Assembly: GCA_043228905.1 (NCBI GenBank)
Contig: JBHGNT010000013.1
Span: 9,672,001 to 9,736,000, forward strand
Length of the DNA stretch: 64,000 nt
Direction: 5' to 3'
DNA from: Azolla caroliniana
Lineage: Eukaryota; Plantae; Polypodiophyta
The translations under genes were made by a program, and so were the position numbers. Positions 2,486-57,737 of the stretch are shown here, piece by piece. Position 1 is the first letter of the stretch; every line of letters begins with the position of its first letter. Below the pieces are notes generated by a model. That model made no database searches and was not told where the DNA came from. It was given only the letters and a program-made list of their open reading frames with translations.

Positions 2486-2913
2486 AGGGGCCGAGAAGGG
2501 TTCGACGTACAAGGTACTGTCCCACGGGCGTGCTATGTGTTACCGGCCGGCAAGTGTCATGAACAGTACTGAGACAGAGAAGGAATTAGTACTAAACGAA
2601 GGATTAGTACTATGAGAGGTGTGGAACTTCTTCGAGAGAAGGAAGAAGTGAGCGAGACAGAGAGAAAGAGAGAGAGAGAGAGAGAGTGAGAGTGATGATA
2701 AGAAAGATATTTATTATATGAAGAGAATATACAACGGTGGCTAAAAGGCTTAAGACTGGCGTTGAACCAATTTGGTTCAACATAATGCCTAGTGCCCTCT
2801 TTTATAGTGTTTTCAGGAGTAATCCTGAAGCTTCTAGAATGTTCCAGAGAAATCTGGAATATACACTAATTTCCTATAATAAAATGTAAATGAAAATAAT
2901 ATCCTACGTATTA

Positions 2914-2986
2914 CAATAGATGGTCTAATGGTCAAGAGCTCGATCCATATAACCTAAGGTCATGGGTTCGAGTCTTGCCATATCAT
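2914..2986 (+). promoter_or_regulatory. tRNA-like Pol III type-2 promoter cassette in the 3' LTR
   Basis: A box TGGTCTAATGG at 2921, AGGTC at 2957-2961 and B box GGTTCGAGTC at 2965. T8 to T54 distance is 46 nt. Confidence 0.65.
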
Positions 2987-5900
2987 GACACTATCCCCCC
3001 TTTAAAACGACGAGTGTCACGAGTCGTCTTGGATTGAGGGCCCGGTTTGTGTGGATATTGACGATGGAAGTCTTCAAGAAGAGCACGAGCATTGGTTACA
3101 TTCTCGATCGGTTCCCAAGTACGTTCGTTGGGACTATACCCTAGCCAATCGACTAGATAGTAGAGCTTGTTGCGAACAATCTTGGAATCAAGAATGGCGG
3201 CAACCTCGTACTCCGGCCCATCTTCAAGCTCGATCGGGGGTGGAGGTTGGATAAGACGTTCTGGGATGGTGCTCTCGTGGTAGGGTTCGAAGAGAGAACT
3301 ATGAAACACCGGATGTATCCGAAGTTGAGGAGGTAGATCGAGACGAAAAGCAACATCATTAATCTTTCCAATAATACGGAAAGGACCTAATCGCCGATAA
3401 TCCAACTTCTCACATGGGCGAGTAGTCTTGATGTGTCGTCGTAGCAACCACACCCGATCTCCAATATTAAAACTAGATGGAAGTCGATGACGATCCGCGT
3501 AGACCTTGTGTGTTTGTTGAGCTTGCTGGAGATGAGTAGATAAATCCGCTTGTATCTTGCGTAACCGCTCCAAACGATCCTCCGCGCACGGATTTGTGGA
3601 CACCTCTGGGGTTTCAAGTACACTCCACCGGGGGTGACATCCCGTATAAGCATAAAATGGCGTAACTTTAGTGGATGCGTGGATAGAGTTGTTATAGGCA
3701 AATTCGGCGAAGTGGAGAATATCTGCCCAGTCATCCTGATGATAGCTGAGAAAGCACCGCAGATACTGCTCCAACGTTTGATTTGTTCATTCAGCTTGGC
3801 CGTCAGTTTGTGGGTGGTAGCTGGAAGAGAGGTTACAAGTGACCTTGAGCATGTTAAAAAGGTGCTTCCAGAATTTTGACACGAACTGGGGTCCACGGTC
3901 GCTGATGATACTATCGGGGAGTCCATGATGCCGACATACTTCACGCATGACAATTTCGGCAGTGTCTTCACTGGAGATCTCCTTAGTACATGGCAAGAAA
4001 TGAGCCATCTTCGTATATCGATCGACCACCGTTAGAATCGCATTGAACCCTTTAGAGACTGGAAGATCTGTGATGAAGTCTAGAGCAATGGATTGCCACG
4101 GCTTGCTTGGAATTGATAATGGTTCTAATAAACCATATGGATGATGCCTTGGCATTTTCGCTCTGCAACATGTATCACAAGTCCGAACAAAATCCTCGAC
4201 AAATTGTCGCATACAGGGCCACCAGAATGATCGTTGTACTAAATGTAATGTTTTAGTACTACCAAAATGCCCAGCTGTATATGTGTCATGACAGTTTTGT
4301 ACTACTCGAAGGCGGCAAGAACCATTAGGAACATACAAAAGTTCTTTAAAGAAGAGTAATCCATCATGGTATTTGAATTGCCGATAGTCCGTACCTGGTG
4401 GTTGCGACTGTGAACACGACGCTCGAGAGGGATCAATTTGTGCTAGTATAGCTTGGGCGAATGCATCTGTCTTCAAGTCTTCACGTATGGTATCGATAAC
4501 GCGGGAATCCATAGGCATGTCAAAGATTTGTGTTGCTTGTAATCGTGCCGGTCCCAAGATGACTTGTTTTTGGTTATCGAAAGCTGGCTCGCCGGGACGG
4601 GGTGCTAGATACGAACGCCGTGATAATGCATCTGCCTTCCCTTGGTGCCTCCCCGGACGATATGTAATTTTGAAGTCGAAACGCGTGAGGAAGTGGGCCC
4701 ACCGAGCTTGACGTCGATTCAACACACGAGCATCCTGAAAGTAGGCAAGATTCTTGTGGTCACTAAATACGGTGACTGGATGAGAGGATCCCTCCAGAAA
4801 ATGCCTCCATTGCATAAAAGAATCCACTATTGCCAATAGCTCCTTATCATGGATTTCGTAGTTGATTTCGGCGGCATCAAACTTGCGTGAGTGAAAAGCC
4901 ACAGGATGTAGCTTTTCATCATTCCCCTGTTGTGACAGAATGCTCCCCAATGCAAAATCCGATGCGTCAGCTTCGATAATGAATGGTTTCTCCGGATCGA
5001 CATGAGCTAGAATTGGAGCCGATGTAAATGCTTTTTTAAGACTCTCGAAAGCCATGTCCATTTCTTCAGACCAGGTGAACGGTTGTCCCTTCCTGGTAAG
5101 TTGTGTGAGAGGTAGAACGATCTTTGAGTAATCCTGTATGAACTTCCGGTAAAAATTGGCAAAGCCTAAGAAGCATTGCACATCCCGTACCGAACGCGGA
5201 GTCTGCCATTCTACCACCGTTCTGACCTTAGCTGGGTCCATGGAGATGCCTTCTGACGAAATGATGTAGCCGAGAAATTCCACTTGGTTGCACCCGAAAC
5301 TACATTTTTCTAGCTTTGCATACAGACCATGTTCTCGAAGTCGTTTTAGTACTAATAGTACATGAGAATCATGTTCTTCTTGGGTCTTTGAATAAACCAG
5401 TAGATCATCCAAATAGATGATCAAACAATCCTCCAATAGATCTCGGAATATATCATTAGCCATGTGCTGGAAGACTGCCGGCGCATTAGTGAGGCCGAAC
5501 GGCATGACAGTATACTCGAAGTGCCCATATCTGGTGCGAAATGCGGTCTTCCATTCGTCTCCTGGTCGGATCCGTACGAGGTTATATGCTCCCCGTAAGT
5601 CGATCTTCGTGAAGAACCTGGCACCATTGATCCGTTCTAAAAGACTTGAGATAAGGGGAAGAGCATATCTATTCCTGATTGTAACCTTATTCAAGCCACG
5701 GTAATCTACAACGAGACGAAGCGATCCATCTTTTTTCTTGACGAAGAAAATGGGCGCACCGGCTGGAGATTTCGAATGCCGAATGAAACCATTTTCCAAA
5801 TTCTCCTCTATATAGGCCCGAAGGACTTCCAGCTCGGTTGGTGACAAATTGTAGATCGGTCCCCATGGCGGCTCTTTTCCCGGTTGTAAATCGATGGGGC

Positions 5901-6579
5901 AATCGTACGGTCGATGATGAGGAAGTGTGTTGGCTTGTACTTTATCGAACACATCGGTGTAATGGCGATACTTCTCGGGAAGTTGAACGGTGGATTCTTC
6001 TTTAGTGGTGTTGGAGGGGTTTACTGATATTGCAAAGAGGAACATTTCCTCCTTGTGCCCTTCTTTACGCAACTGACGTAGCGAAATGGTTGCCATCTTC
6101 TGAGTTGACCCTTGGGTTTGTCGACACCGGATTTCTCTTGTTCTCCAATCTATGTCAGGGTTATGTAACTCGAACCACGGTAGTCCTAAAACTATAGGAT
6201 GTTCTGGGATACTAATAATATTAAATGATACTACACATACTAAGTTATCTAGAACAATATTAATGGGCTCTGACTCTTCTAGGATATTTCCGGAAGCAAT
6301 GGGACGTCCATCAATGACTACTACAGAGGCTGGACACTGGAGTTTTCTTAGGGATATCTTATGAGCTTGAGCAAATTTCTTATCCATAAAGCAAGAGTTA
6401 GCTCCGGAATCTAGGAGTGCTAGGACATGTACTGGAGGGGTACTTTTAGTACTAACTATTACTTGGGCTACGAACACATCACTAACTTGCTTAGAGGGAA
6501 TGGAACCACTAATGGGCTGCACAGATCTAGGGCTGTCCAACCAAACGGCTCCTATTTTGGCTGGACTTAGTCGTTTAAC
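2983..6579 (-). CDS. pol: Pol (PR LLDSGA, RT YLDD, RNase H, integrase, group I-like chromodomain EYEVAAILD...YLVDWLGY...TWEP) in the -1 frame to gag; one in-frame TGA at 3787-3789
   Basis: ORFs 3787..6540 and 2983..3774 are in the same frame, joined as GQAE*TNQTLEQYLR. Confidence 0.95.
6528..6579 (-). promoter_or_regulatory. -1 programmed ribosomal frameshift signal
   Basis: G_TTA_AAC (6579->6573), 6-nt spacer, then an 11-bp stem GTCCAGCCAAA/TTTGGTTGGAC with a possible loop-downstream pseudoknot. Confidence 0.8.
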
Positions 6580-7718
6580 TCTTCTTCTAACTGACTAAGG
6601 ACATCAAATTTGTTTGCTAGATCTGGGATATTAGTACTATTAGGACTATCAGATATCCCTACTGAAATAGGCTCGGATTTAGTACAATTAGAACTAGCGA
6701 CTATTTGGTTTACCTGTCTTCTTGGCCTATGGGGGCAATTTATTGCGATATGTCCTGGTCCACCGCAGTAAAGACATAGTCGATTTGTACGGCGTCGCTG
6801 CTTTTCTTCTTCGGATAATGGCCCTCGACGACGTGTAGTGTCAATCTCCATCGGAGTCGGAGTATTCGCTGGAGAAGCATTATATGACTCCCTCGGAAAA
6901 GGTCTTGCTACCACTGAGGCGTAGGTGGGCTCTGATCTTGCCCTCGGCATTTGTAGTTGTCGTTCCGAACGTCGCTCAAAGAGGCGGTTGTCACATCTCA
7001 CCGTGCGACTGATTGCTTCTGTTAAGGACTTTGGCTCTTCGGGGAAGGTCAAGAGTAAATCCTTGACGTCATTGCGTAAACCATAACGGAATTGCTCCAT
7101 CAACGCTTGATCATCCCAAGGGATATCAGCGGCGAGTAGGCGAAAATCTGCAGCGTATGCGGAGGCTGGACGGTCACCTTGGCGTAATCGCCGGATTTTG
7201 TTGATTGCGGTCCTGATGCTGTCAGTATCTCCGAAACATGCTTTAAACTCACCTAGAAACTCTTCAAAATTGTTGAGTAACGGAGATTCCTTTTCTAATA
7301 GTGGAGCGAACCATGACAAGGCTGAGCCACTTAACAAAGTGCCTACTAAACCCACTCGTGATGCATCGGTGGGATATCGGGAAGGATGCATTTGAATAAC
7401 TAATCGTACCTGGTTAAGGAACCCTCTAAACTGCGATCGCGTTCCATCGAACTTCGTGGGAAGGCCAATCTTAGGTTCTTTATGAATCCCTTGTGTTCCG
7501 GGCCCATGTTGTTGCATCGCTACGATGGTGGCTTCGAGTTGTTGCACGCGTAACGCAAGCTCCCCATGTTGTTGTTGCGTTTGCTGCTTTTCTAAGGAGA
7601 TTTGCTGAAGATCCCCCAGCAACCGTTGGTTTTCTTGTTCCAAAGCATGGAACTTCTCCTTCAAGCATTGGAATTCCGAGAAAACAGATTGATATTCTTC
7701 AGCGCTAACAGTGGCCAT
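6567..7718 (-). CDS. gag: Gag (retrotransposon capsid domain plus CCHC knuckle CLYCGGPGHIAINC), PEG10/sushi-like
   Basis: 383-aa ORF with EPKIGLPTKFDG, LRQG, PTPMEID and a zinc knuckle. Confidence 0.95.
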   Translation of the reverse strand: MATVSAEEYQSVFSEFQCLKEKFHALEQENQRLLGDLQQISLEKQQTQQQHGELALRVQQLEATIVAMQQHGPGTQGIHKEPKIGLPTKFDGTRSQFRGFLNQVRLVIQMHPSRYPTDASRVGLVGTLLSGSALSWFAPLLEKESPLLNNFEEFLGEFKACFGDTDSIRTAINKIRRLRQGDRPASAYAADFRLLAADIPWDDQALMEQFRYGLRNDVKDLLLTFPEEPKSLTEAISRTVRCDNRLFERRSERQLQMPRARSEPTYASVVARPFPRESYNASPANTPTPMEIDTTRRRGPLSEEEKQRRRTNRLCLYCGGPGHIAINCPHRPRRQVNQIVASSNCTKSEPISVGISDSPNSTNIPDLANKFDVLSQLEEELND

Positions 7719-7777: not shown

Positions 7778-7789
7778 AAATTGGTTCAA
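7778..7789 (-). promoter_or_regulatory. Self-priming PBS (TTGAACCAATTT)
   Basis: Lies 2 nt inside the 5' LTR boundary and is the exact complement of AAATTGGTTCAA (minus strand 8010->7999) in the LTR. Confidence 0.8.
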
Positions 7790-8150
7790 ACTGTCATGAA
7801 CAGTACTGAGACAGAGAAGGAATTAGTACTAAACGAAGGATTAGTACTATGAGAGGTGTGGAACTTCTTCGAGAGAAGGAAGAAGTGAGCGAGACAGAGA
7901 GAAAGAGAGAGAGAGAGAGTGAGTGAGAGTGATGATAAGAAAGATATTTATTATATGAAGAGAATATACAACGGTGGCTAAAAGGCTTAAGACTGGCGTT
8001 GAACCAATTTGGTTCAACATAATGCCTAGTGCCCTCTTTTATAGTGTTTTCAGGAGTAATCCTGAAGCTTCTAGAATGTTCCAGAGAAATCTGGAATATA
8101 CACTAATTTCCTATAATAAAATGTAAATGAAAATAATATCCTACGTATTA

Positions 8151-8223
8151 CAATAGATGGTCTAATGGTCAAGAGCTCGATCCATATAACCTAAGGTCAT
8201 GGGTTCGAGTCTTGCCATATCAT
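8151..8223 (+). promoter_or_regulatory. tRNA-like Pol III type-2 promoter cassette in the 5' LTR
   Basis: Identical copy: A box at 8158, B box at 8202. Confidence 0.65.
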
Positions 8224-9450
8224 GACAGCAAGGAGTCCAAAATACGGAGTGAAGGAATTAATTAGATATGGTTGTAAATGAGCATAGTGTGGACGGACGG
8301 ACTGGAAACGGTATGCCGTTCCAGATCCGGACGGATCCCGAATAGGTGCGAGAGGCACCGTTTTGTACTACGGGCCGGAAACCTATTTAAAGGCCCGGAC
8401 CCCATTGTAATGACAGCGGATAATTAATAAAGCTTATGATGTTTATACTTCTGTGTTGATTTCCGTTCTGTAATTACTGTTGTATCTTACGCGTGTAATT
8501 AACCGAAGCATTCTAATCGTGTAACCTATGTAAGTCGGTGTAATCATTGAATCTTAATCCTATGCCGTAATCACCCTTTGGTGAAGTGTCTCCGTGACAC
8601 CTTGTGTTAGGCCTTGTCCGGCTAGAGAATAACAGTTTGAGGAGAGATTCTATCTAAACCCTTACTCCTCGAACCTCTACCCACTTAACCCCTCCAAACC
8701 CCCCTCCTATGAATAAACCGTTCATGTCATTAGGTCAATACAATATCGTGGTCGACAATTTAAAAATAAATAATAATAATAAAAAATAAATAAATAAATA
8801 AATAACCCAAATTTAAAAAATAAAAAAAAAACAATAAAAAATAACTAAAAAATAAAAAATCATAATAATTCGAGGTAGACTAGGGTCAAGGCACGCAAGA
8901 ATCCGTACACTCCATTTAACTATACTAAGCCTTTTACCAACAGGTTGTCATCAATGGCGTCCACTCCATTAATCCAGCTCCTCCACGGCACTACCCCGAC
9001 GCCGGCTACGTTCGCACGCACGCCTTCGTGGATGTTACCCCTATCGAGTGCCAGTTAAAGGTCGCGGACGTTTGCACTACGCTACATTTGTCGGTGGATG
9101 GCATTCCCTTCCACACCAGGAACGCCCCTGACGTCGTCCCCAACATCATCCCCGCCGCCTACTCCTAGTATCTCGGATGCAAAAGTTGGCGTTTCACTGA
9201 AATTCCCCCTCACTTCCATGTTCTTTGTAGTGCCATTGCCCAGATCGGTGACACCGATGCCGTCAACCCTATCACTAATGAGTTCTTCAAGTGGGCACAC
9301 GATCCTCAACCGGTCCAGTGGGTCCACGAACTCGCCACCGACCACCCCTCCAGGCGAACCCCCCTCCCTCCTCTATCCTTCCCTCTCCCGACCCCCGAAG
9401 CTCCCCTCCCACAGTGCACCCGGGAGTGTGCACTCATTAGTTGGGGGGGA

Positions 9451-15363: not shown

Positions 15364-15754
15364 TGTAAAGAATCGTGGTACAATTCTGTGCAGTGGAATA
15401 GGTTAGAGATGTGTGGTGTGTGTGTGTTTGAGAAGAGGAGAGGAGAGAGACACAAGATACATAGATATCTAGAAAATAGAATACTCAAGAATATGTATAT
15501 TACGAAGGAGATTAATCGACACATTACAAAGTAGGATGAGGGTGCTTTATATAGTCATCCTCTCTCTTCATTAACTACCGAAGCTCATCGGTCATGGGGA
15601 ATGTGGAAACCCATTAGTTATGTGTCATAGAATATGATTCTATGACACATAGTTAATGTGTAGAGAGTAATGGTGTGACTTTTGACCTTTGAGTGTTTAT
15701 ACACTCTCAAGGGTGTGCTCACACATTAGACTAGGTTGAGCTTGATTCTCAACA
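15364..15754 (-). mobile_element. Copia solo LTR (termini match the 43968-49627 family)
   Basis: TGTAAAGAATC...GAGCTTGATTCTCAACA with TSD CATTT on both sides. Confidence 0.88.
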
Positions 15755-16644
15755 CATTTGATGGCCCACAGATTTGCATTATGACAAGATATGTCTGAAA
15801 TGATCAACCGTAGATAAATCAATTAATTAATTGGAATAAACCAATTAGTTGTTGGGTGGCATCTAGCTCTTTTTTGCAATCCACATCCTAATTTCATAGG
15901 AACTCCTAATAGCACAACAATTATTGTTATGTACACATAATGTTGGTGAGGGTAGGTCACCAATATTTACATTAGTGAAGGGTATGTTCACTAATGTTAA
16001 AAAGGGGACTAATGATTGGATAGAAGGAATGATAAGTGCATGCACTATCATGATTTGGACAACCAATAAATGGAGAGCCTTTTAGAAAGGCACATCTATT
16101 CAAGGGGCCTAAGAAAAGGTATAAATATGAGGGTAGATGAGGCTTAGCTATCCTCATAATCACATTACGTCGGAAGGGTGTTGTCTTAGACACCGGTGGT
16201 GCGGGCTAGGCTTTCGTTTCGGCGATCGTGTTTATCTCTTCCAAGGTATTAATCATCCTAATATCCGGCGGTATGGGACGTCGGTGGTAGGTTCGCTATG
16301 TCTAGATCATAACTCGAGGGTGGTCGGGTGGAACGGGTTCTTCTATCCATTCTATTTTCCTTCTTTTACTTTAGTTTGGTCAATTGATTAGTAATAGACT
16401 CTTAACAGTGGTATTAGAGCATTTACTAACAATTTTTGTTGTTGTTTTGATGTTTTTTGCATGTGAGCGATGGAGATCTAACAAGGCTCGTCATGCTCTG
16501 CACAAGATCAAAACAACATTCTTAACTCGGTATTCTTCTTTCTCGATCTTTCTCTTCTTTCTATGACGCGTTCTTTATGATCGAATCAAATTTGTATTAC
16601 GTTTTCTTTTCTTTTCTTTCTTCTTTCTACCACAATATGATTTT

Positions 16645-17100
16645 AATTATTATTGTGCATCGGGCCAAGCGTGTTTGCACTAATCGCATACGCCCAACTC
16701 ATGGCCTTTTGCATATTGCGATGTGTCTCCCACTCTCCTGTCTCTTGAGCCTTCTCTTACGATATTAATTATTCTTGTGCATCGGGTCGAGCGTGTTTGC
16801 CCTAATCGCACACGCTCACCTCATGGCCCTTTTGCATATGATGTTCAATATGCCACTCTTCCCTCTATTGAGCCATCACTTGGTCGAGTCTATGGGATGT
16901 TGTGGCCATGACGAGGTGTATGTCGCCTACCTATGCCACTCTACTCTTAATTGAGCCATCACTTGGCCGATTCTATGGGATGTTGTGTCCTTAACAAGGT
17001 ATATGTCGCTTACCTATGCCACTTTACTCTTTATTGAGCCATCAATTGGTCGATTCTAGGGAGATGTGGTGGTCTCGAGGAGGTGCATGTTGACTACCTT
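16645..17100 (+). repeat. Tandem repeats in the element A leader (two ~120-bp units, then about three ~83-bp units)
   Basis: TTAATTATT..GTGCATCGGG..CTAATCGCA occurs twice. TATGCCACT..ATTGAGCCATCA..TGG occurs three times. Confidence 0.75.
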
Positions 17101-18093
17101 AGGGTTTCATACCTTAAGACATGCTTAATGATTCATACACCTAATTGATTATTATTCTAATTCATTTCGAATTACATAAATTTTTGTTTCACTTTTGTAT
17201 GATTTTCTAGTAATTGTCATTTACCCACCCACAATTAACTCTCTTTCTTGCCCTTATTTTAAGTTCATCTACACTATTTACGTACGTTTAATGGTGTATG
17301 ATTCATGTAGACTATTTTTTAATATTGAGTGGGCATCATGCCGTTTTTTGAACGATTTTTTCCAATGGCTCATCTAGGTTTCACTCATATTATCGAGCCT
17401 TAGAACTCGAGTAAAACCACATGAGTTCCCCTATTGATGTTTTACTCATAGATTTGAGTTCTACATCTTTGCGAACAACACCACCACCACGTGTATCAAT
17501 TTGTGGCTTATGTCACATTTGTGCAAATTACAACCACCATATTGGGATGTATATGTGCATACCTCGCACCATCCATTTATTTGTGACTTTTTTTTTTAGT
17601 AGGTAACACATGGGTTTTTTGACCCTTATTTTTGTCACTACTTGATTCTTATGGGTAGTGCCTTATTTTATCATTTTTGTCATAACATTTGCTTGTTACT
17701 CGCAAGACTAAAATATTACTTGTGAGTGCACTTGTTTTTTCACGTAATACACTTTCTCGACCATATCAATACATGTTGGGTTGACATTCTAATATAAGGC
17801 TAACTAGGAAACTACATTGATGTTAGAACCATGGTTGAGCCTCGGGGAGCCGCCATGATTATTCAAGATAGAGATCCGAGAAATACATCTTAGCTATGTT
17901 TTCCCCCATGGTTTTTAAAACACCATAGTGTTACCATAGTTCTCAGATCTCGAATCACATCTCATATGTCTAGAGGGGTAAAGACGTGAGATGCTTTCTT
18001 GGTAAAGTTCTTACAATCAAAATTTCAAGCATTCATTTTGCTTGTGTATTTTCTGAACCTCCTTATTTATATTTTATACCCACAGCTTGCATC

Positions 18094-18942
18094 ATGGAAC
18101 AAGTTTTGAACGTTGTTGGAGCAATCTCTCCGACCGAGACCTCTCAACTACAATCCGCATCTCGCACACAAGCTGAGATCACTATTGAGCAATTGCTCAC
18201 TACTACCTTGAATCAATTGGCCGAAATGAGGCAAGCCAATATGGCATTGGAAAAGAAATTCCAAGAATGGACTATTGAGTCCATGGAAAAAGGTGAGCCT
18301 TCTTTCATAGTAACGCCATTCAAGGGAGATAAGAAAGAAAGAACCAAGTAGGCCGTTAGCACTTGGCTTGGTCGTTGGGAGTCTAACTTTGAGCTCCACC
18401 CCAAGCCCAATGCTATAAAAATTGGTTACATCGGTCGTGAGTTAGGTGGCCGAGCTGCTGCTTGGTGGCGCGGCCTAAGGACTGCAAAGAACTTACCCAC
18501 AACTTGGGAAGGTTTCGTTGATGTTTTTAAGAAATAGTTTTTGCAACCACCTTCTCAAACTGAACAAGTGCAACACTTGCTCACATTGTCGAGTAAGCCA
18601 TTTATCTCTCTCGAGGATTATGTGCATCATGCTCGGACCCAAATCCAAAAATCGGGACTTACGGGTGAGAAATGGTTTGTTGCTTGCTTTTTGAATGGTA
18701 TTCCTAATGGGGATTACCATTGGATTGTCCATGACAAGGACCCCACAACTTTTGAGGAAGCCGTCAACATTGTACTTCGGTACCATAGGACTTCCAAGAA
18801 AAACCATAATAAACCTGAGTTCGCCAAAACTCCGAATGTCAAGTTCATTGGGAAACGTAAGCAATCCAATGACACTCTTGACCGCGACTCTAAGAAACCT
18901 AGCCTCTTCTATGCATATTGCAAGAAACGGGGCCACACAAAG
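18094..18942 (+). pseudogene. gag: Element A gag, 5' part (in-frame stops), cut within the zinc knuckle
   Basis: Similar to element B gag (GEPSFIVTPFKGDKKERT, LEDYVHHARTQIQKSGL). CAYCKKRGHTK continues as DTCRRL at 25902. Confidence 0.9.
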
Positions 18943-19650
18943 TGTTACGGGCATGACCATTTAATATCCCGTGGTGAGAATTTACCGTAGTATTTTATAC
19001 ACGTGGATAAGTGTGAGGGTTAAACGAGAGTGTAAAGAAGGGGAGGATTACTTTTAATCCTCGGGATTGAGACAACCCATTAGGTCAAGTGTGAACTTGC
19101 TTGGGGGCCTTGGGTATCGCTATAAATAAGAGGCCTAGCTACCCTCATTTGATCATCTTTTTTACTACATCGAGACTCTGCTCTTGTGGTGGGTCAACTC
19201 TTGTAGCGAGCGCGCCAGCACCAGGTACGACTCGACGCCACGGCGGTGGTATGGGACGCCGATCGAGGCTCGAGTCCGTCTCGATCCCTTCGCTCGGGGG
19301 TGGTCGGGTGGATCGACACCCTTCTTTCTCTTTCTCCTTTCTATCTATCATTTGTTTATCCTTATCTTAAGCTTACTTTAGTACTTAGATCTCTAATATT
19401 TGGTATCAGATTTATGTACTAATGTTTCTTTGTTTGTCTTTTGTCTTTTGATTGATGGTGATCGATTGATGTGCGGTCGGCCTTGATCCAGACAACGATC
19501 AACAAAGAACTTCAGTAACTCTTTCCATAATTTTTCTTTCTATTCTCTCTTCTCCCATCTAATCACGTGTTTAGTTTATATGTCATTTTTTTTCATTAAG
19601 TCAATGATGTTGTAGTGGCCTTTAATTGATTATCTAAAACATTTACATAT

Positions 19651-19910
19651 GTGCACGAGGTCAATACCTCGTTTGACATATTAATAATATGGGATGAGTG
19701 TCGTATGCATACGAGGTTAATACCTCAATTACGTATTACGTTCATGAACATATGTTACGTTTGCGTATGAGTTTAATACCTTGATTTGTTGTAAACGATA
19801 TGCGGTTGGTCTCGTATGCGTAAGAGGTCAATATCTCAATTGCGTATTACGATGATCTCTTATTTGTGGATGTTTCGTGTGCGTAGAGGTATATACCTCG
19901 ATTACGTATC
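19651..19910 (+). repeat. Five ~56-bp spaced hairpin repeats GAGGT-NAAT-ACCTC in the element B leader
   Basis: Cores at 19657, 19713, 19769, 19824 and 19886. Confidence 0.75.
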
Positions 19911-21080
19911 TCAATCACACCATTTGTGGCTATTTAATATAACGATATGTTAATATAGGCATATGTGGTCACGTATATACGTATTTGATCGTATATATGT
20001 GATAAGTAAACATATGTGTATATTCGTTATTACGTGATTATATCGAAAGTTGTCCTTGTCGAGAAAAGGATGTTGGTGGCCGTCCTCACATTTTTGTGAG
20101 AATGGCGTTGTCACCATCCCTTTTTCAACAATGTTTTATTGTTGACAACCCCGTTGATGACCTCGATTTCGTTACGTAAAGAAACGCCTATAGCCATAAC
20201 GATGTTGAGTACGTAGGGCTTGACCCATTTCAAGTGAGGTCGCTCCAATGACACACGTATCCAACATCCCTCCCTCGTTACATGGATACGATGCCACCAT
20301 GAGCTCGTTATTACGAAGGGCGTTCGTAATGACGTGACCATGTGATGGGCCACATGAGCCTACTACGAAACGAGGGCTCATTTGGCTTGACCATTAGGTT
20401 GCACTTTGGCGTATGCTATCGTAATTACGAGACTTGAGGTTAGGTAACGCACCAACATAGTTTTGGTAAATGAGGGAAAAATAAGGACCCTTGACATATA
20501 TGTTCTTTTAGAAAAAACATATATGATCTTGCATATCTCTTATACGCATCAAACATTAAGCATTCAAGAGGAGCAACTTACTTGGTTGGCTCAAGTGTTT
20601 AATGTACTTGTTCTCGAGGTCTCGAGTTCAAATATGACCAAGACCATACAACATCCTTGATACATATGACTATAACACATTTTTAGACTTAAGGTCTAAG
20701 TGCACCTCGGGGTCCTCGTAATAGGACTTAAAGAGCCGAAACCACATATGTGGGCACCGAAACATAGTTTATTGTTAACATTTTTTTCGTGTATAAACTA
20801 TTCATGACGCGAACATACATGGTTGAGCCTCGGGGAGCCACCATGAAAAAATCGATATAGAGATTAGGGAAAGACATTTATTTGTCACCCCCATGGTTTT
20901 TAAAACACCTTTGTGTTACCATAGTAACCTGATCTTGAACCTCATCTCATACGGCTAGAGGGGTATTGACATGAGATAATGATATCGATTAATGCTTGCC
21001 CATGATAGGTTTACATCATGACATGATGTTATGACTATCTCTCTGACCTTATCCTATTTCTTTTCCAGAAATAATCTTTA

Positions 21081-24000
21081 ATGGCTCAAATTAACGACCC
21101 GATGTCATCCGCTCAAGCAGAAGGAACTCAAGGGAATCCTCCTGGGCAAATGTCCACTGAGATGTATTTGGCACAAATAACCCAATACCTTAGTTTCACC
21201 GCTCAACAAATGACCGAACTTCGGCAATCTCAGAGTGCTCTTGAGGCACGTGTCATTAGTCTACAACATGAGACTAATAGACCTGATGAGCGACAAGGTG
21301 AACCATCATTTGTCGTTAAGCCATTTACGGGAGACAAAAAGGAAAGAACCGAAGAAGCAATCTGCACATGGCTAGGACGATGGGAGTCTCCTTTTGAGCT
21401 CTATCCCACGCGTGGGCTCCGTACTATGGGGAAATTGCCCGATACCTGGACAGATTTTGTCACGGTTTTTAAGGGCCAATTTCTGCAACCTCCCTCTCGA
21501 ACTGAGGCCGCACAAGCTTTAATGAACCTCTCTAGCAGGAAATTTTCCTCACTAGAAGACTATGTTCACCATGCTAGAACCCAAATCCAAAAATCGGGTC
21601 TAGAAGGGGACAATTGGTTGATAGCTTGTTTTGTCAATGGCATCCCCAATTCGGACTATCACTGGATAGTGCACGATAAGGATCCAAAATCCTTCGAAGA
21701 GGCCGTTGAAATAGTTCTTTGCTATCAACGCACTTTGAAGAAGGACCACAACAAACCCAACGAAGTGCTCGGGACTAAGCAGTCGCAATTCGTTGGGAAA
21801 CACAAGACACCCAATGAATTCATGGATCGCGATTGTAAGCGACAACATCCTTTTTGCGTATTCTGCAAAAAGAAGGGTCATACAAAAGATCAATGTCGAA
21901 AGCTCCAACGGAAAGAGCACGACAACAAAGCTAAAGTTGCAGACCATAAAGGTCAGATCCCTAATGTCCTTCAGGTCTATACACATCATTTAAGTAATTG
22001 TCAATGTTCTTTCCCTCATTATGTATTGGGTCCCAATGATTTACTACGTGCAAACGGGTATATCAATGGATCTCCCGTACAATTTTTATTTGATTCGGGA
22101 AGCTCACACAATTTTATGAATGATCGTTTGGTTCAGATATGGGGAATCCAACCCACCGTAAGTGATCACACCTACACGGTGCACTTGGTTGATGGAAGAG
22201 TACAATACATCAACGGGACGATTCATTCATTAGGAATTTCTATTGATACTTATATAGAAGAAGTAGACTTCCATGTAATGAATCTTTGTACCACCGATGT
22301 AATATTGGGTTATCCCTGGTTTTATAATAAAAACTCTTCTTTATTTATTGATTGGGTTCGCCATTCCATTTATTTTGTACTGAACGATTGTACGCATTTT
22401 ATTCAATATGTAAAAAAACAATCCCTCTCGATTGTTTCCTCGTGTCCATCAATATCCGAGTTGTCTTGTTCTACGTTATTTTATTGTGTACTTGATCCGG
22501 ACATTCACGTTTACAATATCGATAATGTCCCGGTTCAATTAACATATTTTGAACAACAACAACTTGATGAAATCTTAAATGATTTTCATGATGTTTTTCC
22601 AAGTGAACTACCTGATGGGTTACCTCCTAAACGTAATATAGACCATCGTATAGATATTGTACCTGGTGTTGCACCAATAAGTATACCTCCGTATCGCTTA
22701 AGTTGATCCGAAGAAGATGAGGTATCTAAGCAACTCAAGGACTTTTTACGAATGGGTTATATACGTTATAGTAAATCTCCATGGGGTGCACCAATTCTCT
22801 TGGTTAAAAAGAAAGAGGGCACATGGCGTATGTGTATTAATTACCGACGCTTGAATAAAGTGACGATCAAGAATTTGTACCCATTGCCCCGGGCTGACGA
22901 TCTAATTGACCGTCTCCAAGGAGCTTGGTATTTTACGAAACTTGATCTCCGTACTGGCTACCATCAAATACGAATAAGTGAGGACGATGTTCCTAAAACG
23001 GCATTTCGTACGCGCTATGGCCATTGCGAGTTTTTGGTTATGCCTCTTGGTTTGACCAATGCTCCGGCTACTTTTCAACAAGAAATGAATGACATTTTCC
23101 GTGAACAACTTGGAAAATTTGTCGTTATTTTCTTGGATGATATTTTAGTTTATAGTCGTACATTACAAGAACATGCTAGACATGTCCGCTTTGTTTTACA
23201 AACATTGCGTGACAAACAGTTTTATGCGAAGATCTCAAAATGTGAGTTCTTCAAGAAATCAATTACTTATCTTGGACATCTCATAACCGAACGAGGAGTT
23301 GAAATTGATCCTTCTCGCATTGAGAAAATCAAGCTTTGGCCCACTCTTCGGAATATTCGAGAAGTTCGATCATTCCTTGGTTTTGTCGGGTTTTTGCGAA
23401 AGTCTCTTCGTAATTACTCCCAATTGACGACGCCGTTTACTGATCTTTTAAAAGGTCAAATGCGTAAGTCTACAAAACCTATTGTGTCGAATGCTACACT
23501 AGACCTCGCCTTTAAGGAACTCAAGGACCTGGTTTGAAGGGCTCCTTCACTTCTTTTACCTGATCCTTTAAAACCTTTTGAGGTTGAAACCGATGCAAGC
23601 GATTATGGTATAGGTGTTGTCTTGTATCAAGATGGTAAACCAATAGCATTCGAGAGTAAGAAACTTGATTATGCTCAATGTCGGTATACCGTTCAAGAAA
23701 AGGAATTATTTGCAGTTATACATGCGCTCAAAACATGGCGCCATTATCTTTATGGAAATCGCTTTGTGGTAACTACAGACCACGAGTCCTTGAAATATTT
23801 TTGTGACCAACAAGACCTGAAAGGTCGTAAGGCACGATGGGCTGATCTCATCCAGGACTTTGATTTTTCCATACGATATCGTAAAGGTTCCATGAACACT
23901 GTCGCTGATGCACTAAGTCGCATCCATGAAGTTAACATGCTTAGCTTCACTGAAATAACATCATATCTTTATGATCACCTTCGAGGAAAGTATCCTAATG

Positions 24001-25487
24001 ACAGTTATTTTGCAAAATATTGGGCAAGAGTTGAGTCTGGAACAGACATCACCACATCCTCGAAGGAATACTTCCACATTGCTAACGGTTTGCTCTACCG
24101 TAATGGGAAGGTTTGTGTTCCAGATTTACCCGAGGTCAAAAAGAGGATTCTTTTTGAATGCCATGATGCACCCTCAGCAGGGCACCCTGGAATACATCGT
24201 ACACTCGTTCTCATCTCCACTCAATTTTATTGGCCTAAGATGCGTCGTGACATACATAGCTATGTGACTAAATGTCACCAGTGTCAAGTTAACAAAGCCG
24301 AGCGACTTAAAGCCGCAGGACTTTTACATCCCTTGGACATTCCCAATAATAAGTGGGAAAGTATATCCATGGATTTTATTGTTAGCCTTCCTCGCACCCA
24401 GAAATGTCATGATGCCATCTGGGTTGTCGTTGATCGACTAACTAAAATGGCCAGATTTATTGCTACTAAAACCACAATAACAGCTCCTGAATTGGCTTAC
24501 CAATTCATTGACGAATTGTTTCGTTTTTATGGGTTACCGATGGATATCGTGAGTGATCGAGATCCAAAGTTTACTAGTGACTTCTCGACGCAAGTCTTTA
24601 AGAAGTTAGAAACTACGTTGAGCATGAGCTCCACGGATCATCCTCAATCTGATGGACAGACAGAACGAGTAAATCAAATTATTGAGGACATGCTTCGAGC
24701 ATACGTTGGTGCAAAACCAACAAAATGGGAACGTTATCTCCCAATTTTGGAGTTTGCTTATAACAGCTCCAAGCATACGTCGACGGGATATAGTCCTTTT
24801 ATGTTGATGTATGGTTTTCAGCCATAAGCCCCAATTGATGTTAATATACATCATGATGAGTTGCGAAGTACGCAAAACTTTCATCGGGATATGCAAGATA
24901 TGTTGCATATTGCACGAGATAATATAAAAACAGCTCAAGATAGAGCGCGTTTTTATGCCGATCATCATAGGCAACCTCGTGTCTTCAACCCTGGACAGAA
25001 GGTATTTTTACGTGTACCTCACAATTCTAAGACATTGTCTACGGGTAAGTGCGCTAAGTTAGCCCCACGGTTTTGTGGACCTTTTACAGTCCTCAAACGC
25101 ATTGGGTCATCAGTCTATCGTCTTGCTCTTCCCGATGGTGTTGGAATTCATCCAGTCTTCCATGTGAGTCGTCTAAAAGAACTTCTAGGTTCTAGCGACA
25201 ATACAATTACAACTGAAACTCTGGTTACTTCTGAAGAATTATCTTCTAAACCACATGTACCAAAAAGAATTCTCGATGTTAAAACAAAAAAATTACGTAC
25301 TAAAGAAATCCGAGAATTTAAAATAAAATGGATGGATAAATCAATAAAAGATGCCACATGGGAACGCGAAAATACTCTTAGAACTAATTTCCCTAACTTT
25401 CCATTGCAAGAGTGCAATGTTTTAAAGAGGGGGGGAGTATGTTACGGGCATGACCATTTAATATCCCGTGGTGAGAATTTACTGTAG
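21081..25487 (+). pseudogene. Element B single-frame gag-pol (CCHC, PR FDSGS, RT FLDD, RH, INT, group II-like chromodomain) broken by three stop codons; ORF runs into the 3' LTR
   Basis: ORFs 21081, 22752, 23622 and 24861 are all in the same frame. Confidence 0.95.
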
Positions 25488-25901
25488 TATTCTATACACG
25501 TGGATAAGTGTGAGGGTTAAACGAGAGTGTAAAGAAGGGGAGGATTACTTTTAATCCTCGGGATTGAGACAACCCATTAGGTCAAGTGTGAACTTGCCTG
25601 GGGGGCCTTGGGTATCGCTATAAATAAGAGGCCTAGCTACCCTCATTTGATCATCTTTTTTACTACATCGAGACTCTGCTCTTGTGGTGGGTCAACTCTT
25701 GTAGCGAGCGCACCAACACCAGGTACGACTCGACGCCACGGCGGTGGTATGGGACGCCGATCGAGGCTCGAGTCCGTCTCGATCCCTTCGCTCGGGGGTG
25801 GTCGGGTGGATCGGCACCCTTCTTTCTCTTTCTCCTTTCTATCTATCATTTGTTTATCCTTATCTTAAGCTTACTTTAGTACTTAGATCTCTAATACAAA
25901 G

Positions 25902-28900
25902 GATACATGCCGTCGTCTTGAGAGGAAGTCAATAAACACCCCTCCTCAAGACAAATCTACAAGTCACACAGGTGAGTCTTTTGATGTTGTTGAAGTTCAT
26001 ACCAACCATTTAAGTTCATGTGAATGCACTTTTCCTTCACATTTACTTGGACCTAATGATTTACTCCGAGCAGTCGGGTATATCAATGGAACACAAGCAC
26101 ATTTCTTGTTTGATTCCAGTAGTTCTCACAATTTTCTTAATGATCACTTTGTGCAGCAAATGGAACTCCACATAAACGCAAGTGATCATATCTATCAAGT
26201 TCACATGGCAAATGGAAGTGTTCAATACATCAATGGCATTGTTTGTCAACTGCCAACTCAAATAGATACCTATTTGGAGAAGCTTGACTTTCATGTTATG
26301 AAACTAAAATCCGCAGATGTCATTTTAGGATACCCTTGGTTTTTTAATAAAAACCCTTCTTTGTCCATTGATTGGGTTAATCACTCAATCACATTTGAAC
26401 TTAATAATTGTAAACATTTTATTCAATGTTCCAAACTTCCTTCTCGTTCACTTGTGTCTTCTAAATCTTTAAGTGAGTATTCAAGTTCATTAATTTATTC
26501 GTGTGTTGTTGATCCTGTGCTTCAATTTTATTATTTTAATATTGACGCCACACAATTACCACATTATGAACAACGATTACTCCACTCTATTTTAGACGAT
26601 TTTCAAGACGTGTTTCCTAACAAATTGCCACTTACTTTACCACCAAAACGTAATGTGGACCATCAAATTGAACTCATTCCTGGTGTTGCTCATGTGAGCA
26701 TTCCATCTTACTAACTTAGTCTATTAGAAGAGGATGAGATCGCTAAACAACTTAAGGAATACTTGAGTATGGGCCACATTAGGTATAGTAAATCACCTTG
26801 GGGTGCGCCAGTTCTATCGGTTAAGAAGAAGGAAGTTTCATGGCGAATGTGTATCAATTATCGCCGTTTGCATAAAATGACAATTAAAAATGCATATCCG
26901 TTACCTCGTGCCAATGATTTGATTGATCGTTTGCATGGGGCCCGATATTTTACGAAAATTGACTTACGGAGAGGTTACCATCATATTAGCATTGCCGAGG
27001 ATGATATTCCTAAAACCGCTTTTCGTACGCGCTATGGCCACTATGAGTTTTTAGTCATGCCTTTCGGGTTGACTAATGCTCTAGCCACATTCCAACAAGC
27101 GATGAATGACGTTTTCCGAGATCAACTCGGTGATTTTGTTGTCATCTTCTTGGATGATATTTTGATATATAGTTGTACCTTGCAAGATCATGTTCAACAT
27201 GTTCAATTTGTTTTGCAAAAGTTGCGTGACAACTCTTTCTATGCAAAACATTCAAAATGTAATTTTTTCCAAAAGTCTAGTGTGTACCTAGGTCATTTAA
27301 TTACAGAAAATGGTGTTGAAATTGAACCTTCTCGTATTGAAAAGGTTAAACTTTGGCCCATTCCTCGTAATATTCGTGAATTGTGATCATTCTTAGGGTT
27401 TGTTGGATTTTTACGAAAATCAATTCGTAACTATTCCAAATGGACTACGCCATTAACTGACCTTTTAAAAGGTCATCCACGTAAGTCTGTCAAACCAATT
27501 GCATGGAATGAACAACTTGACAAATCATTTAAGACACTCAAAGAGCATGTGTGTCTGGCTCCCGCTCTTCTATTACTGGACCCTTCTAAGCCTTTCTCAA
27601 TTGAAACTGATGCCAGTGATTATGCTATTGGTGTCGTTCTTTATCAATGTGGTCACCCTATTGCTTTTGAAAGTAAGAAGCTTGATGCTACTCAATCTCG
27701 GTATTCAGTTCAAGAGAAAGAGTTGTTTGCGGTAACACATGCACTTAAAACATGGAGGCACTATCTCTATGGAAATAAATTTGTGGTTACAACAGACCAT
27801 CAATCATTGAAGTATTTTTGTGACCAGCCAGATCTTGTTGGTCATAAAGGCCGTTGCGTTGACCTTATGCAAGATTTTGATTTTTCCATACGGTATCGCA
27901 AGGGTTCTATGAACACTGTTGTGGATGCTCTTAGTCGCATTAACGAAGTTAACACGCTTAGCTTCATGGAAATAAAATCTAATCTGTTAGATCACCTTCG
28001 AGGGAAATACCTTGATGACAGTTATTTTTTGAAATACTGGACAAAAGCCGAATCTGGTTTAGATGCTGATACTAGCACCCTACCCTCGAAGGCGACCTTT
28101 CACATTAGAAATAGTTTGCTCTACCGTAGTGGAAAGGTTTGTGTTCCAGATTTACCAAACGTAAAACAGAAAATTCTTCATGAATGTCATGATGCACCAT
28201 CTGCTGGTCATCCTGGAATACAATGCACACTCGTTCTCATCTCGAGTACTTTTTTCTGGCCTAAGATGCACTCTAACATGCATAAATACGTAACTCAATT
28301 CTTACAATGTCAGATTAATAAGTCAGAACGACTTAAAGCTATGGGTCTTTTACATCCCTTAGATATGCCCAACAACAAATGGGAAAGTATCTCGATGGAT
28401 TTTATTGTTAGTTTACCTTGTACACAGAGGGGTCATGATGCCATCTAGGTTGTCATTTACAGACTAACAAAATTGGCTAGATTTATTCCTACCAAAACCA
28501 CGGTAACCGCTCAACAATTGGCTTATCAATTTGTTGATGAGTTATTTCGTTTTTATGGATTACCAATGGATATTGTTAGTGATCGATATTCCAAGTTTAC
28601 TAGTGACTTTTGGATTCAAGTCTTTAAGAAACTAGAAACTACGTTGAGCATGAGTTCTGCAAATCATCCTCAGTCTGATGGACAAACTGAATGAGTTAAT
28701 CAAATTATTCAGGACATTCTTCGAGCTTATGTAGCAAAAACCCCTTCTAAGTGGGAGCAATACCTTCCTATCTTAGAATTTGCCTATAATAGCTCTAAAC
28801 ATACATCCGCTGGATATAGTCCTTTTATGTTGATGTATGGTTTTCAGCCACGTGCCCCAGTTGATGTCACGATTCATCGTGATACATTAGACAGTACAAG

Positions 28901-29900
28901 CAATTTTTTGCAAGACATGAACCAAATGTTGCATATTGCCAAAGAGAATGTCAAGACAGCTCAAGATCATGCTCGATTTTATGTTGATCAGGATAGACGT
29001 CCTCGTGCATTTACTATTGGTCAAAAAGTTTTTTTGCATGTCCCTATTGACTCTACGTCATTGTCTACGGGAAAGTGCGCTAAGTTAGCCCCACGATATT
29101 GTGGCCCATTTGAAATCCTTAAGCGGATTGGGTCATCTGCTTATCACCTTGCCTTACCCCGTAACGTTGGTATTCATCCTATTTTTCACGTTAGTCTATT
29201 GTTAAGAATTAGGTAAGTAATTAAGGGTTAATTAGTACCTAATTATGTGATTAGTTGATAAGCAGAAGATTATGTGATATGTGTGTGTATGTGTGTGAGA
29301 GGAAGAGAGAGAGGAGAGATATGAACAACACAAGATGGGGGATGAGTAAACTAGAGTGTATATTATAAAACATCATCATCAAATACAAAACTACCATCAA
29401 TGAGGTATATATAGATCTCATGTGCAAGGGTGCACATGTGTGAGGAGAATATAGGTACAATCGTGTAAGTCCTATATTAAATGACCTTGGGAGTGGAGGA
29501 TCTAGAATATCCTACTTAAGTACAAGGTCCTATTTAAGTCGTTATAGTCAACACTTCTAACTAGATTCTATCTAGGTAACTACGAAGTTACATGGTTGAC
29601 TAACTAACTAAACTAAGTTGAGCTTGATCTCTCAACAGTTGTCTAAAACCATAGGCTCTGGTGATAACACCATCACAATCCAAGATCTTGTAACATTAGA
29701 GGATTTTTCTTACAAACCTCATGTTCCTGAACAAATTCTTGATTCTCATACTTAAACGTGTTCTAAAGAGATTCGGCTATTCAAGATCAAATGGATGGAT
29801 AAACCTATTGATGATGCCACATGGGAACACGAGCATACTCTTAGGGCACAATTTCCTCACTTTATATTGCAAGAGTGCAATCTTTTGAAGTAGGGGAGTA
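25902..29900 (+). pseudogene. pol: Element A gag end and pol (PR, RT FLDD, RH, INT, chromodomain-like) with several stops
   Basis: ORFs 26106, 26763, 27549, 28473 and 28827 are collinear with element B pol. Confidence 0.92.
29200..29637 (-). mobile_element. Copia-type solo LTR inserted in the element A integrase C-terminus
   Basis: TGTTAAGAAT...GAGCTTGATCTCTCAACA interrupts the HPIFHVS/LK motif. No clean TSD. Confidence 0.75.
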
Positions 29901-30699
29901 TGTTATGTACACATAACGTTGGTGAGGGTAGGTCACCAATATTTACATTAGTGAAGGGTATGGTCACTAATGTTAAAAAGGGGACTAATGATTGGATAGA
30001 AGGAATGATAAGTGCATGCACTATCATGATTTGGACAACCAATGAATGGAGAGCCTTTTAGAAAGGCACATCTATTCAAGGGGTCTAGGAAAAGGTATAA
30101 ATATGAGGCTTAGCTACCCTCATAATCACATTACGTCGGAAGGTTGTTGTCTTAAACACAGGTGGTACGGGCTAGGCTTTTGTCTCGACGATCATGTTTA
30201 TCTCTTCCAAGGTATTAGTCATCCTAATATCTGGCGGTATGGGACATCGGTGGTAGGTTGGTTATGTCTAGATCATAGCTCGGGGGTGGTCGGGTGGAAC
30301 GGGTTCTTCTATCCATTCTATTTTCCTTCTTTTACTTTAGTTTGGTCTATTGATTAGTAATAGACTCTTAACAATTATATATCTAGGATGTAGGTAGGAC
30401 TGAACATTTCTTCAATATTAGGTTTTTCCTTTTTTATTAACAATTAGGAAAATATTGTTATTTTGAAGTAAAACAAAGCTATCATTTATGGGTTAACCAA
30501 GATCTTCTTTTTTTTCCAAAAAAAAGATACTACACTAGTATTAGAAAATGCCATAAGGCTAAACATACAAGATATACCACTGATCCCCTATGTTTTTCTA
30601 AATTCTAACCATCGGCTTAAATAAACACTTTGGTGTTGAGTAGAACTACTCCACCTTATCAAAACGTCGTCTATAAAATATATCTATGTCCTAAATGGC

Positions 30700-56832: not shown

Positions 56833-57737
56833 CTAGATTTATTTCAACTAAATCCTTAGTAACAAATCATGATCTAGCTTACCAATTCATTGAATATTCA
56901 TGTCTCTACAAGTTACTAAGGAATATAATAAGCGGTAAAAGATCCTAAAGTCTTTTCTAATGATTTTCAGATTCTTAAGTCTATGAAGAGCTACAATCAC
57001 TATCAATAAGATCAGAATGAATTAAAAAAATTATGTTCATGAGTTTGGGGGTCTTTTGATCTAGCGCCTTGGTTAAAACAACTTTTTTTTTTCAAGTATG
57101 ATTGACACATTCAGATTCCTATTATGGTATGTGTCCATGTTCCCACCAAGCAACTATAGCATTGGCACAATAGAAAACATGAATTTTATTTGAATACTAA
57201 TGATGACATCAAAATATAATAATACAAATGAACGTACCAGAAACATAGACATGCTTTGAAACTAAGATCCACAGGTTAGAATGAGTCATACTCATAAGTC
57301 AATTGTTAAAGAGAAACATCTTCAATACAGCATGCTTTATTTTCTAGTATCTAGTGTCATACTGTATATTTGAGGTAGTTTCTCATTAAATAGTTTATTT
57401 CTCATTATTCATTAAACTCTTAACAGTTATGATTCTTATGAACATCAATGTTAAGAAACTGTAGCAGCAGTATAGACTTGAATTCAGAATGTTTGTGATA
57501 CAAGGAAATAAATATAAGCATCAAAGTGAACAAGAGTAACCTTCAAAATATTGATCCCTCTACCGAGACAATATCCTTCCTTGCAATCGTGATTTTGAAG
57601 ACAGAATTACTTCAGATGATATCCAACTATATTTAGCTGCTATCGAAAACTAATTGGTCATGTAAACAAATGTAAGTTGGTCATCTCATGAAAAGCTCAT
57701 TCCATCATGAAAAAGAAAAAGAAAAGGATAGTTCTCT

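What the first reader, a model, noticed from the sequence alone, without database searches (positions are those of the whole stretch)
7778..8043. tRNA-independent self-priming with a U3/R palindrome that could mask the 3' copy of the primer
Seen: there is no TGG-type PBS. After the 5' LTR and a 2-nt spacer comes TTGAACCAATTT (7789->7778), the exact complement of AAATTGGTTCAA (8010->7999). That LTR motif starts 33 nt downstream of the first T of TATAAAA (8043->8037), a plausible transcription start. It is the downstream half of a perfect 21-nt palindrome GTTGAACCAA-A-TTGGTTCAAC (7998-8018; also 2761-2781). Established: Tf1/sushi-type elements prime from the first ~11 nt of their own mRNA. Inference: a transcript starting mid-palindrome has a free 5' primer, while the 3' LTR copy (U3+R) folds into a 10-bp hairpin that cannot compete for the PBS. 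This would be a built-in switch distinguishing the 5' and 3' copies.
Basis: partly seen in the sequence, partly recalled or inferred. Interest (0 to 1): 0.75.

Follow-up and report, generated by a model that had tools for sequence, protein, structure and literature searches.

The report
Hairpin hiding a retrotransposon's self-primer
A plant jumping gene that likely starts copying itself with the first 12 bases of its own RNA (already predicted for its group) carries, just before its likely start site, a short mirror copy of that primer which many related families keep by matching changes and which is predicted to hide the primer's second copy, though several successful relatives do without it.

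Summary
The element (minus strand, 8227-2555) is a young Tcn1-type chromovirus. Its PBS has no TGG and is the exact 12-nt complement of an LTR motif 33 nt after the TATA box. In this genome seven different primer/PBS pairs stay complementary, so Tf1-type self-priming is very likely, but it was already predicted for 83% of plant Tcn1 elements (PMC6317226). The palindrome would fold as 9 bp with a 3-nt loop, not 10 bp. The perfect form belongs to one LTR lineage (1,291 sites). A U3/R hairpin over the primer is significant in 9 of 22 plant-like contexts, which form two lineages with unrelated sequences. In the second lineage the U3 arm, primer and PBS change together at two positions, and the arm is conserved where flank and loop are not. 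It is weak or absent in young families (G1, G2, I, C) and in 7 of 8 fungal-like relatives, so it is an optional refinement, not a required switch. The start site could not be mapped. Eight paper searches showed no description of the hairpin; this scan noted similar hairpins in four other genomes.

The parts
7792..8227 (-). 5' LTR, 436 bp, TGTCATGA...TCATGACA
8037..8043 (-). TATA box (TATAAAA)
   Evidence: same spacing to the primer (31-36 nt) in related families
8011..8018 (-). U3 arm (GTTGAACC), a partial copy of the PBS sequence just upstream of the inferred start
7999..8010 (-). Predicted self-primer, +1..+12; inferred start at 8010 (C|A step), not mapped
   Evidence: covariation with PBS
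7998..8018 (.). 21-nt palindrome, 5' LTR copy
   Evidence: 1,291 exact sites in the genome
7790..7791 (-). 2-nt spacer between LTR end and PBS
   Evidence: 2 nt in every junction scored
7778..7789 (-). PBS, complementary to +1..+12, no TGG
6567..7718 (-). gag (Retrotrans_gag, Ty3_capsid; weak zinc knuckle hit)
3787..6594 (-). pol: protease, RT, RNase H, integrase; overlaps the gag end in another frame; this copy has an in-frame stop at 3789-3787 inside integrase
2983..3786 (-). Remainder of the pol frame after the stop: SH3-like domain and chromodomain
2991..3003 (-). Polypurine tract before the 3' LTR
2555..2990 (-). 3' LTR
2761..2781 (.). 21-nt palindrome, 3' LTR copy: predicted 9-bp hairpin inside a longer imperfect stem reaching back to the TATA region
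8228..8232 (-). Target-site duplication CTTGC (other copy 2554-2550)

Best explanation
This is a young Tcn1-type LTR retrotransposon that likely primes reverse transcription with the first 12 bases of its own RNA, and the palindrome likely acts as an optional mask that folds over any copy of that primer still attached to U3 sequence. Shown: the PBS/primer complement, its covariation across families, the hairpin-forming arm and its conservation. Inferred from Tf1: transcription starts at 8010, +1..+12 pairs with the PBS, and RNase H cuts near +12/+13 to free the primer. Inferred here: only RNA starting at +1 lacks the U3 arm; the 3' end of the genomic RNA, upstream-started or read-through RNA, and a displaced plus-strand strong-stop DNA all carry it and would bury primer bases +6..+12, so they would not pair with the PBS, be cut there or fold back on it. 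It improves fidelity rather than being essential.
For: Seven primer/PBS sequence pairs in this genome stay complementary, always CA + 2 nt + PBS with the primer starting on A 31-36 nt after TATA. None of 92 tRNA gene sequences matches a PBS at its 3' end (best 7 of 12). Masking energy beats shuffled U3 at p<=0.05 in 9 of 22 plant-like against 1 of 8 fungal-like contexts. In the D/E lineage (8 rows) 90.5% of cells pair, 3 of 12 pairs change on both sides, 0 of 500 shuffles reach the covariation score and slid registers give 26-48%; two of these pairs are primer bases whose PBS partners also change. The arm is conserved while its neighbours are not: 0.93 against 0.44 flank and 0.25 loop (E, L055, K); 0.92 against 0.33 (A, F, J). 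With 30 nt of U3 attached, predicted primer:PBS pairing drops to <=0.07 in 5 of 7 hairpin families, against 0.77-0.99 with U3 shuffled. In Ty3 the plus-strand strong-stop DNA is displaced (PMC5371799); about half of Tf1 cDNAs keep a single-stranded PBS tail (PMC11042837).
Against: Young families with near-identical LTRs have no significant mask: G1 (same primer as the window, p 0.11), G2 (p 0.77, 184 exact LTR sites), I (p 0.38), C (p 0.43). Weaker B/C variants (1,406 sites) are as common as the perfect palindrome (1,291). The 9 significant contexts are only two lineages. I2 keeps the GAACC arm although its primer changed. H1 and E still pair primer with PBS at equilibrium (0.91, 0.94), and for the window element the DNA fold-back is predicted at 0.00 with or without the arm. 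Shuffle controls ignore relatedness and the structure was drawn from one of the rows. The published SM-Tcn1 has the primer geometry but, by eye, no arm. By inference the 5' primer lies about 220 nt from the PBS and pairs first, so a mask at the 3' end may be little needed. The start site is not mapped.
Confidence: 0.5

Rival explanations
1. Self-priming holds, and the hairpin is selected, but for another job: a 3'-LTR-only signal for transcript end formation, a landmark for minus-strand transfer, or a core-promoter feature.
For: Any U3/R stem forms only in the 3' copy of the RNA, whatever its use. A pair lying wholly in U3 also changes on both sides (columns 25/30). G1, L058 and two tRNA-primed LTRs of this window have hairpins between TATA and start that lie inside U3 and mask little or nothing.
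Against: The arm follows the primer sequence in two unrelated lineages, which a fixed protein-binding site would not do. The tRNA-primed LTRs show no pairing across the inferred start (p 0.81-0.99).
Confidence: 0.27
2. Self-priming holds, and the inverted repeat is a neutral by-product: reverse transcriptase folding back at the template's 5' end copies the primer into U3, and later template switches re-perfect it.
For: Patchy presence, different registers in different lineages, and loss without visible cost. The A/B differences at -6 and +5 are C/T changes at CpG sites (my reading). The mutational route is recalled knowledge, not tested.
Against: Bulged and mismatched stems persist over many copies (D, K, B), a G-U pair is kept, and the arm stays 0.92-0.93 identical between families whose surrounding U3 no longer aligns.
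Confidence: 0.2
3. A host tRNA or tRNA fragment primes at this PBS and the LTR complement is incidental.
For: GGTTCAA occurs in tRNA T-loops: up to 9 nt (window PBS with spacer) or 10-11 nt (family B) of internal match. The tRNA set covered only 15 anticodon types.
Against: Those matches end at about tRNA position 61-63, not at the 3' end or the anticodon. The PBS begins TTG, not TGG. Each family's PBS follows its own LTR.
Confidence: 0.03

Closest known systems
Plant Tcn1 chromoviruses (Neumann 2019, PMC6317226; Novikova 2010, PMC2864245; SM-Tcn1, PpatensLTR)
   Same: Chromodomain integrase, 5-bp duplication, overlapping gag/pol, 5,673 bp, no tRNA-type PBS; self-priming predicted for 83% of 1,500 elements by the same criterion (at least 10 nt complement, 0-5 nt after the LTR).
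   Different: The passages read describe no U3 arm or U3/R hairpin. Novikova reported no self-priming evidence for SM-Tcn1, yet its supplementary sequence shows the same geometry by eye.
Tf1/Tf2/Tj1/Tosmo self-priming 'pretzel' (PMC7175516, PMC4600332, bioRxiv 10.1101/2022.12.06.519325)
   Same: The RNA 5' end is complementary to a PBS just after the LTR's CA; a second duplex between sequence after the primer and the U5 end is predicted in most families here.
   Different: Primer 11-12 nt against 11; the third duplex was not seen; the pretzel uses only LTR sequence downstream of the primer, whereas this arm lies upstream of the start.
Alternative start-site control of Tf2 (PMC5341516)
   Same: Whether an RNA can be reverse transcribed depends on where it starts relative to the self-primer.
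   Different: There a nucleosome moves the start downstream of the primer; here an RNA fold would disable RNAs that carry upstream sequence.
Conserved hairpin site of fungal GalEa Copia elements (PMC5445492)
   Same: Palindrome plus hairpin in an element with no tRNA PBS.
   Different: It lies at the PBS position downstream of the LTR, with no complement in the LTR.

Membership tests
Ty3/gypsy chromovirus | gag, then PR-RT-RH-INT order with C-terminal chromodomain | tested here: met
   Pfam, (Chromo E 1.4e-14, downstream of an in-frame stop in this copy)
Plant Tcn1 clade | RT groups with named Tcn1 references | tested here: inconclusive
   The tree has no named Tcn1 row; it separates the element from Tanacetum, Closterium, frog/fish and the window's tRNA-primed elements. 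RT, gag and LTR motifs resemble SM-Tcn1 by eye, not computed.
Plant Tcn1 clade | 5-bp duplication, size 5466-9444 bp, overlapping gag/pol | tested here: met
   CTTGC, 5,673 bp, pol frame overlapping the gag end
Plant Tcn1 clade | Host is a moss or lycophyte | not tested
Tf1/sushi self-priming | PBS complementary to an LTR motif instead of a tRNA end | tested here: met
   (partial tRNA set)
Tf1/sushi self-priming | Primer is the RNA's 5' end | tested here: inconclusive
   8-18 reads per run, no pile-up of ends; TATA spacing and C|A step are consistent
Tf1/sushi self-priming | Three-duplex pretzel | tested here: inconclusive
   central duplex in 9 of 9 folds shown; an R:U5-end duplex in 7 of 9 (B, H1, G2, I, E, D, F), a local U5 stem instead in the window element and G1; no third duplex; pseudoknots are not modelled
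Tf1/sushi self-priming | RNase H cleavage releases the primer | not testable with these tools
   needs biochemistry
RLG1 of Physcomitrium patens | Sequence identity to RLG1 | not tested
   No RLG1 sequence was available; PMC7466625 passages only

The most novel reading that the evidence does not exclude
Self-priming retroelements have repeatedly evolved an 'anti-primer' arm at the end of U3, an undescribed cis-acting element that co-evolves with primer and PBS and solves a problem peculiar to self-priming: every U3-R junction, in RNA and in strong-stop DNA, carries a second primer able to hijack the PBS.
Probability: 0.38. Interest if true: 0.65.

Novelty: new variant of a known kind. Interest (0 to 1): 0.5.

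Why it matters
Self-primed reverse transcription has been dissected only in fission-yeast Tf1, and the published model covers the 5' leader alone. How the second copy of the primer is kept from the PBS has, in the papers I could read, no stated answer. This genome offers a natural experiment: families with the same primer with and without the arm (A against G1), and a lineage where arm, primer and PBS change together. That makes the question testable with short RNAs. It also corrects the older statement that SM-Tcn1 shows no self-priming signal.

Tried and rejected
Start-site mapping: no RNA holder was listed; raw poly(A) reads gave 17 and 15 reads on the window stretch and 15, 18 and 8 on family B, mostly under 95% alike, with no pile-up of ends; no conclusion. 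Viral contigs gave 3 loci, none with a scored primer. Of 79 metagenome loci I accepted a CA + 2 nt + PBS junction with a TATA-spaced primer in 18; the rest lacked the LTR or had junctions I could not resolve, and several A/T-rich chance hits were dropped by eye. Own-genome searches with L061, L064 and L058 found no close relatives of those families. The first measure, number of masked bases, separated real from shuffled U3 only for D and E types, so I replaced it by a masking energy; both are reported. The maximum-likelihood tree timed out; FastTree was used. Rejected: a 10-bp hairpin; that the perfect palindrome is clade-wide; that A and H1 are independent (they share U3 despite different pol, i.e. 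recombination); the 166 count as a count of subfamily A alone (it includes recombinants such as L186). The eight notes concern a different feature. Levin 1995, Levin 1996 and Lin & Levin 1998 were not held.

Full report
Observation. All coordinates check. The element lies on the minus strand from 8227 to 2555, with 436-bp LTRs differing at one base, a 5-bp duplication, a polypurine tract, gag, and pol with a chromodomain. This copy has an in-frame stop at 3789-3787 in integrase. After the LTR's CA and a 2-nt spacer comes a 12-nt PBS that is the exact complement of 8010-7999, which begins at a C|A step 33 nt after the TATA box. The palindrome is predicted to fold as 9 bp with a 3-nt loop (-10.2 kcal/mol, against -12.7 for the primer:PBS duplex), inside a longer imperfect stem (-24.0 over 76 nt). 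The window is G000:C13:9672001-9736000.

Self-priming. I fetched copies of the family and of relatives in the same genome and 79 metagenome loci. Family letters are my own labels. Seven primer/PBS pairs occur in this genome, each complementary within its family: A/H/G1, B/C, F/J, G2, I, D and E/K. The nearest sisters B and C differ from the window at primer +5 and at the matching PBS base (676 exact junctions). Geometry is constant: CA, 2 nt, a 10-12-nt PBS, and a primer starting on A 31-36 nt after TATA. From +1, predicted primer:PBS pairing is 0.98-1.00 in all 16 plant-like rows and 0.42-0.99 in 6 fungal-like rows. None of 92 distinct tRNA gene sequences (15 anticodon types, a partial set and other loci) matches at its 3' end; the longest matches are internal, in the T-loop. 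Primer-to-PBS coupling is expected if the primer re-templates the PBS each cycle (inference). RNA reads were too few to map the start.

The hairpin. One search scored 30 contexts for the energy gained by pairing primer bases with the 26 nt upstream, against 300 dinucleotide shuffles each. Nine of 22 plant-like contexts reach p<=0.05 (A, B, H1, F, D, E, L057, L055, K); four more are at 0.05-0.08 (J, L058, S1, L061); C, H2, I, I2, I3, G1, G2, M and S2 are not significant; 1 of 8 fungal-like contexts is. 'Plant-like' and 'fungal-like' are my labels from RT identity and the tree, not from host records. Left out before the count: L086 (RT identical to L085), L121, L124, L129 (primer as L088), L060, L063, L064 (same clade as S1, S2) and duplicate copies. 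For M, I3, L055, L058, S1 and S2 the primer was placed by the conserved motif behind it, without a PBS checked in the same locus. The nine hits are two lineages. In the first (A, H, F, J, B) the arm GAACC pairs with +6..+13; identity among A, F and J is 0.92 in the arm and 0.33 just upstream. In the second (D, E, K, L055, L057) an unrelated arm lies further upstream and pairs with +1..+9 or more. There D and E differ at primer +5 and +8, and both PBS and arm change to match; a pair wholly in U3 takes three different Watson-Crick forms; the arm is 0.93 identical among E, L055 and K, against 0.44 in the flank and 0.25 in the loop.

Against a required switch. Genome-wide there are 1,291 exact perfect palindromes, 1,406 of the weaker B/C forms and 184 of the arm-less G2 form. 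G1, G2 and I have LTR pairs 99-100% identical, so they moved recently without a mask; G1 has the window's primer. I2 keeps the arm sequence after its primer changed. With U3 attached, primer:PBS pairing is predicted to be lost in A, B, F, D and L057 but not in H1 or E; fold-back of single-stranded strong-stop DNA is 0.00 in 6 of 7 hairpin families against 0.34-1.00 with shuffled U3 in the six other than A, while for A it is 0.00 either way, and D stays at 0.79 (12 shuffles each). Equilibrium folds understate a local hairpin that forms first during transcription (inference). As a control, two tRNA-primed LTRs of this window show hairpins inside U3 but none across the inferred start.

Mechanism. 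Most likely the RNA starts at 8010, pairs +1..+12 with the PBS and is cut by RNase H, as shown for Tf1 (PMC7175516). The arm would then bury the primer copy wherever U3 precedes R: at the RNA's 3' end, in upstream-started or read-through RNA, and in displaced plus-strand strong-stop DNA, whose 3' PBS tail is complementary to its own R (displacement shown for Ty3; PBS tail for Tf1; both transferred here by inference). I put self-priming at about 0.93 and masking as the arm's selected role at about 0.5; the rivals are another 3'-LTR-specific function (0.27), a neutral template-switch product (0.2) and tRNA priming (0.03).

What is known. PMC6317226 (passages; supplementary table row; its per-element file was not among the 5 files held and may bear on this family) predicts self-priming for 83% of 1,500 plant Tcn1 elements. 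PMC2864245 (passages; supplement S3 whole; five .doc supplements unreadable) found no priming signal in SM-Tcn1, but its sequence shows LTR 395-406 complementary to the PBS after a 2-nt spacer, 33 nt after TATA, with no arm (read by eye). Passages only: PMC4600332, PMC5445492, PMC5341516, bioRxiv 10.1101/2022.12.06.519325 (40), PMC3601003, PMC11899658, PMC11042837, PMC7175516, PMC7466625, PMC5371799. Eight searches (listings and abstract starts) showed no description of a U3 arm masking a self-primer, but the primary Tf1 papers were not held and Butler 2001 and Goodwin & Poulter 2001 were not seen, so absence from print is not established. Unchecked notes of this scan report similar hairpins in four other genomes, two described as fungal and one as a diatom; I read them after my own analysis and they are not evidence.

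Verdict. A real feature. The priming mode is known for the clade; the U3/R anti-primer hairpin is a recurrent, partly covarying, dispensable variant whose role is untested. Novelty: new variant of a known kind. Interest 0.5.

Noticed in passing
PMC2864245 supplement S3, SM-Tcn1 395-406 and 499-510: The published Selaginella element said to lack priming signals has the same self-primer geometry, by eye.
   Followed up: partly
window 7991-7998 and 7790-7796; all plant-like families: A motif right after the primer (C-R-C-C-A-G-T) is nearly invariant across families and is predicted to pair with the LTR end and spacer in 7 of 9 folds shown; a candidate cleavage-site structure.
   Followed up: partly
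L186, L047, L190; families A and H: LTR parts and pol do not share one history: L186 has an A-type LTR end with an H-type RT and U3, pointing to recombination between families.
   Followed up: partly
window 2533-2554 and 8228-~8600: The element seems to sit about 17 bp inside another LTR-like repeat that begins TGTTAC, just after a 769-aa coiled-coil-like frame (176-2485, +) with no Pfam hit.
   Followed up: no
window 15925-30380 and 18943-25896: Two nested Ty3-type elements with a TGG-type PBS; their LTRs carry a hairpin inside U3 between TATA and the likely start.
   Followed up: partly
window 15619-15651: A perfect inverted repeat with 15-bp arms and a 3-nt loop.
   Followed up: no
L095, L101, L105, L108, L119, L120: A clade of metagenome elements with a conserved junction after the LTR that is neither TGG-type nor matched to a self-primer by my scans.
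   Followed up: no
G000:C53:1448 and 6741; G000:C12:18915990-18926072: RT hits about 5 kb apart suggest tandem arrays of E and B elements, where read-through RNA would meet an internal primer and PBS.
   Followed up: no
window 55139-56833: A tandem repeat of about 214-nt units, 8 copies.
   Followed up: no
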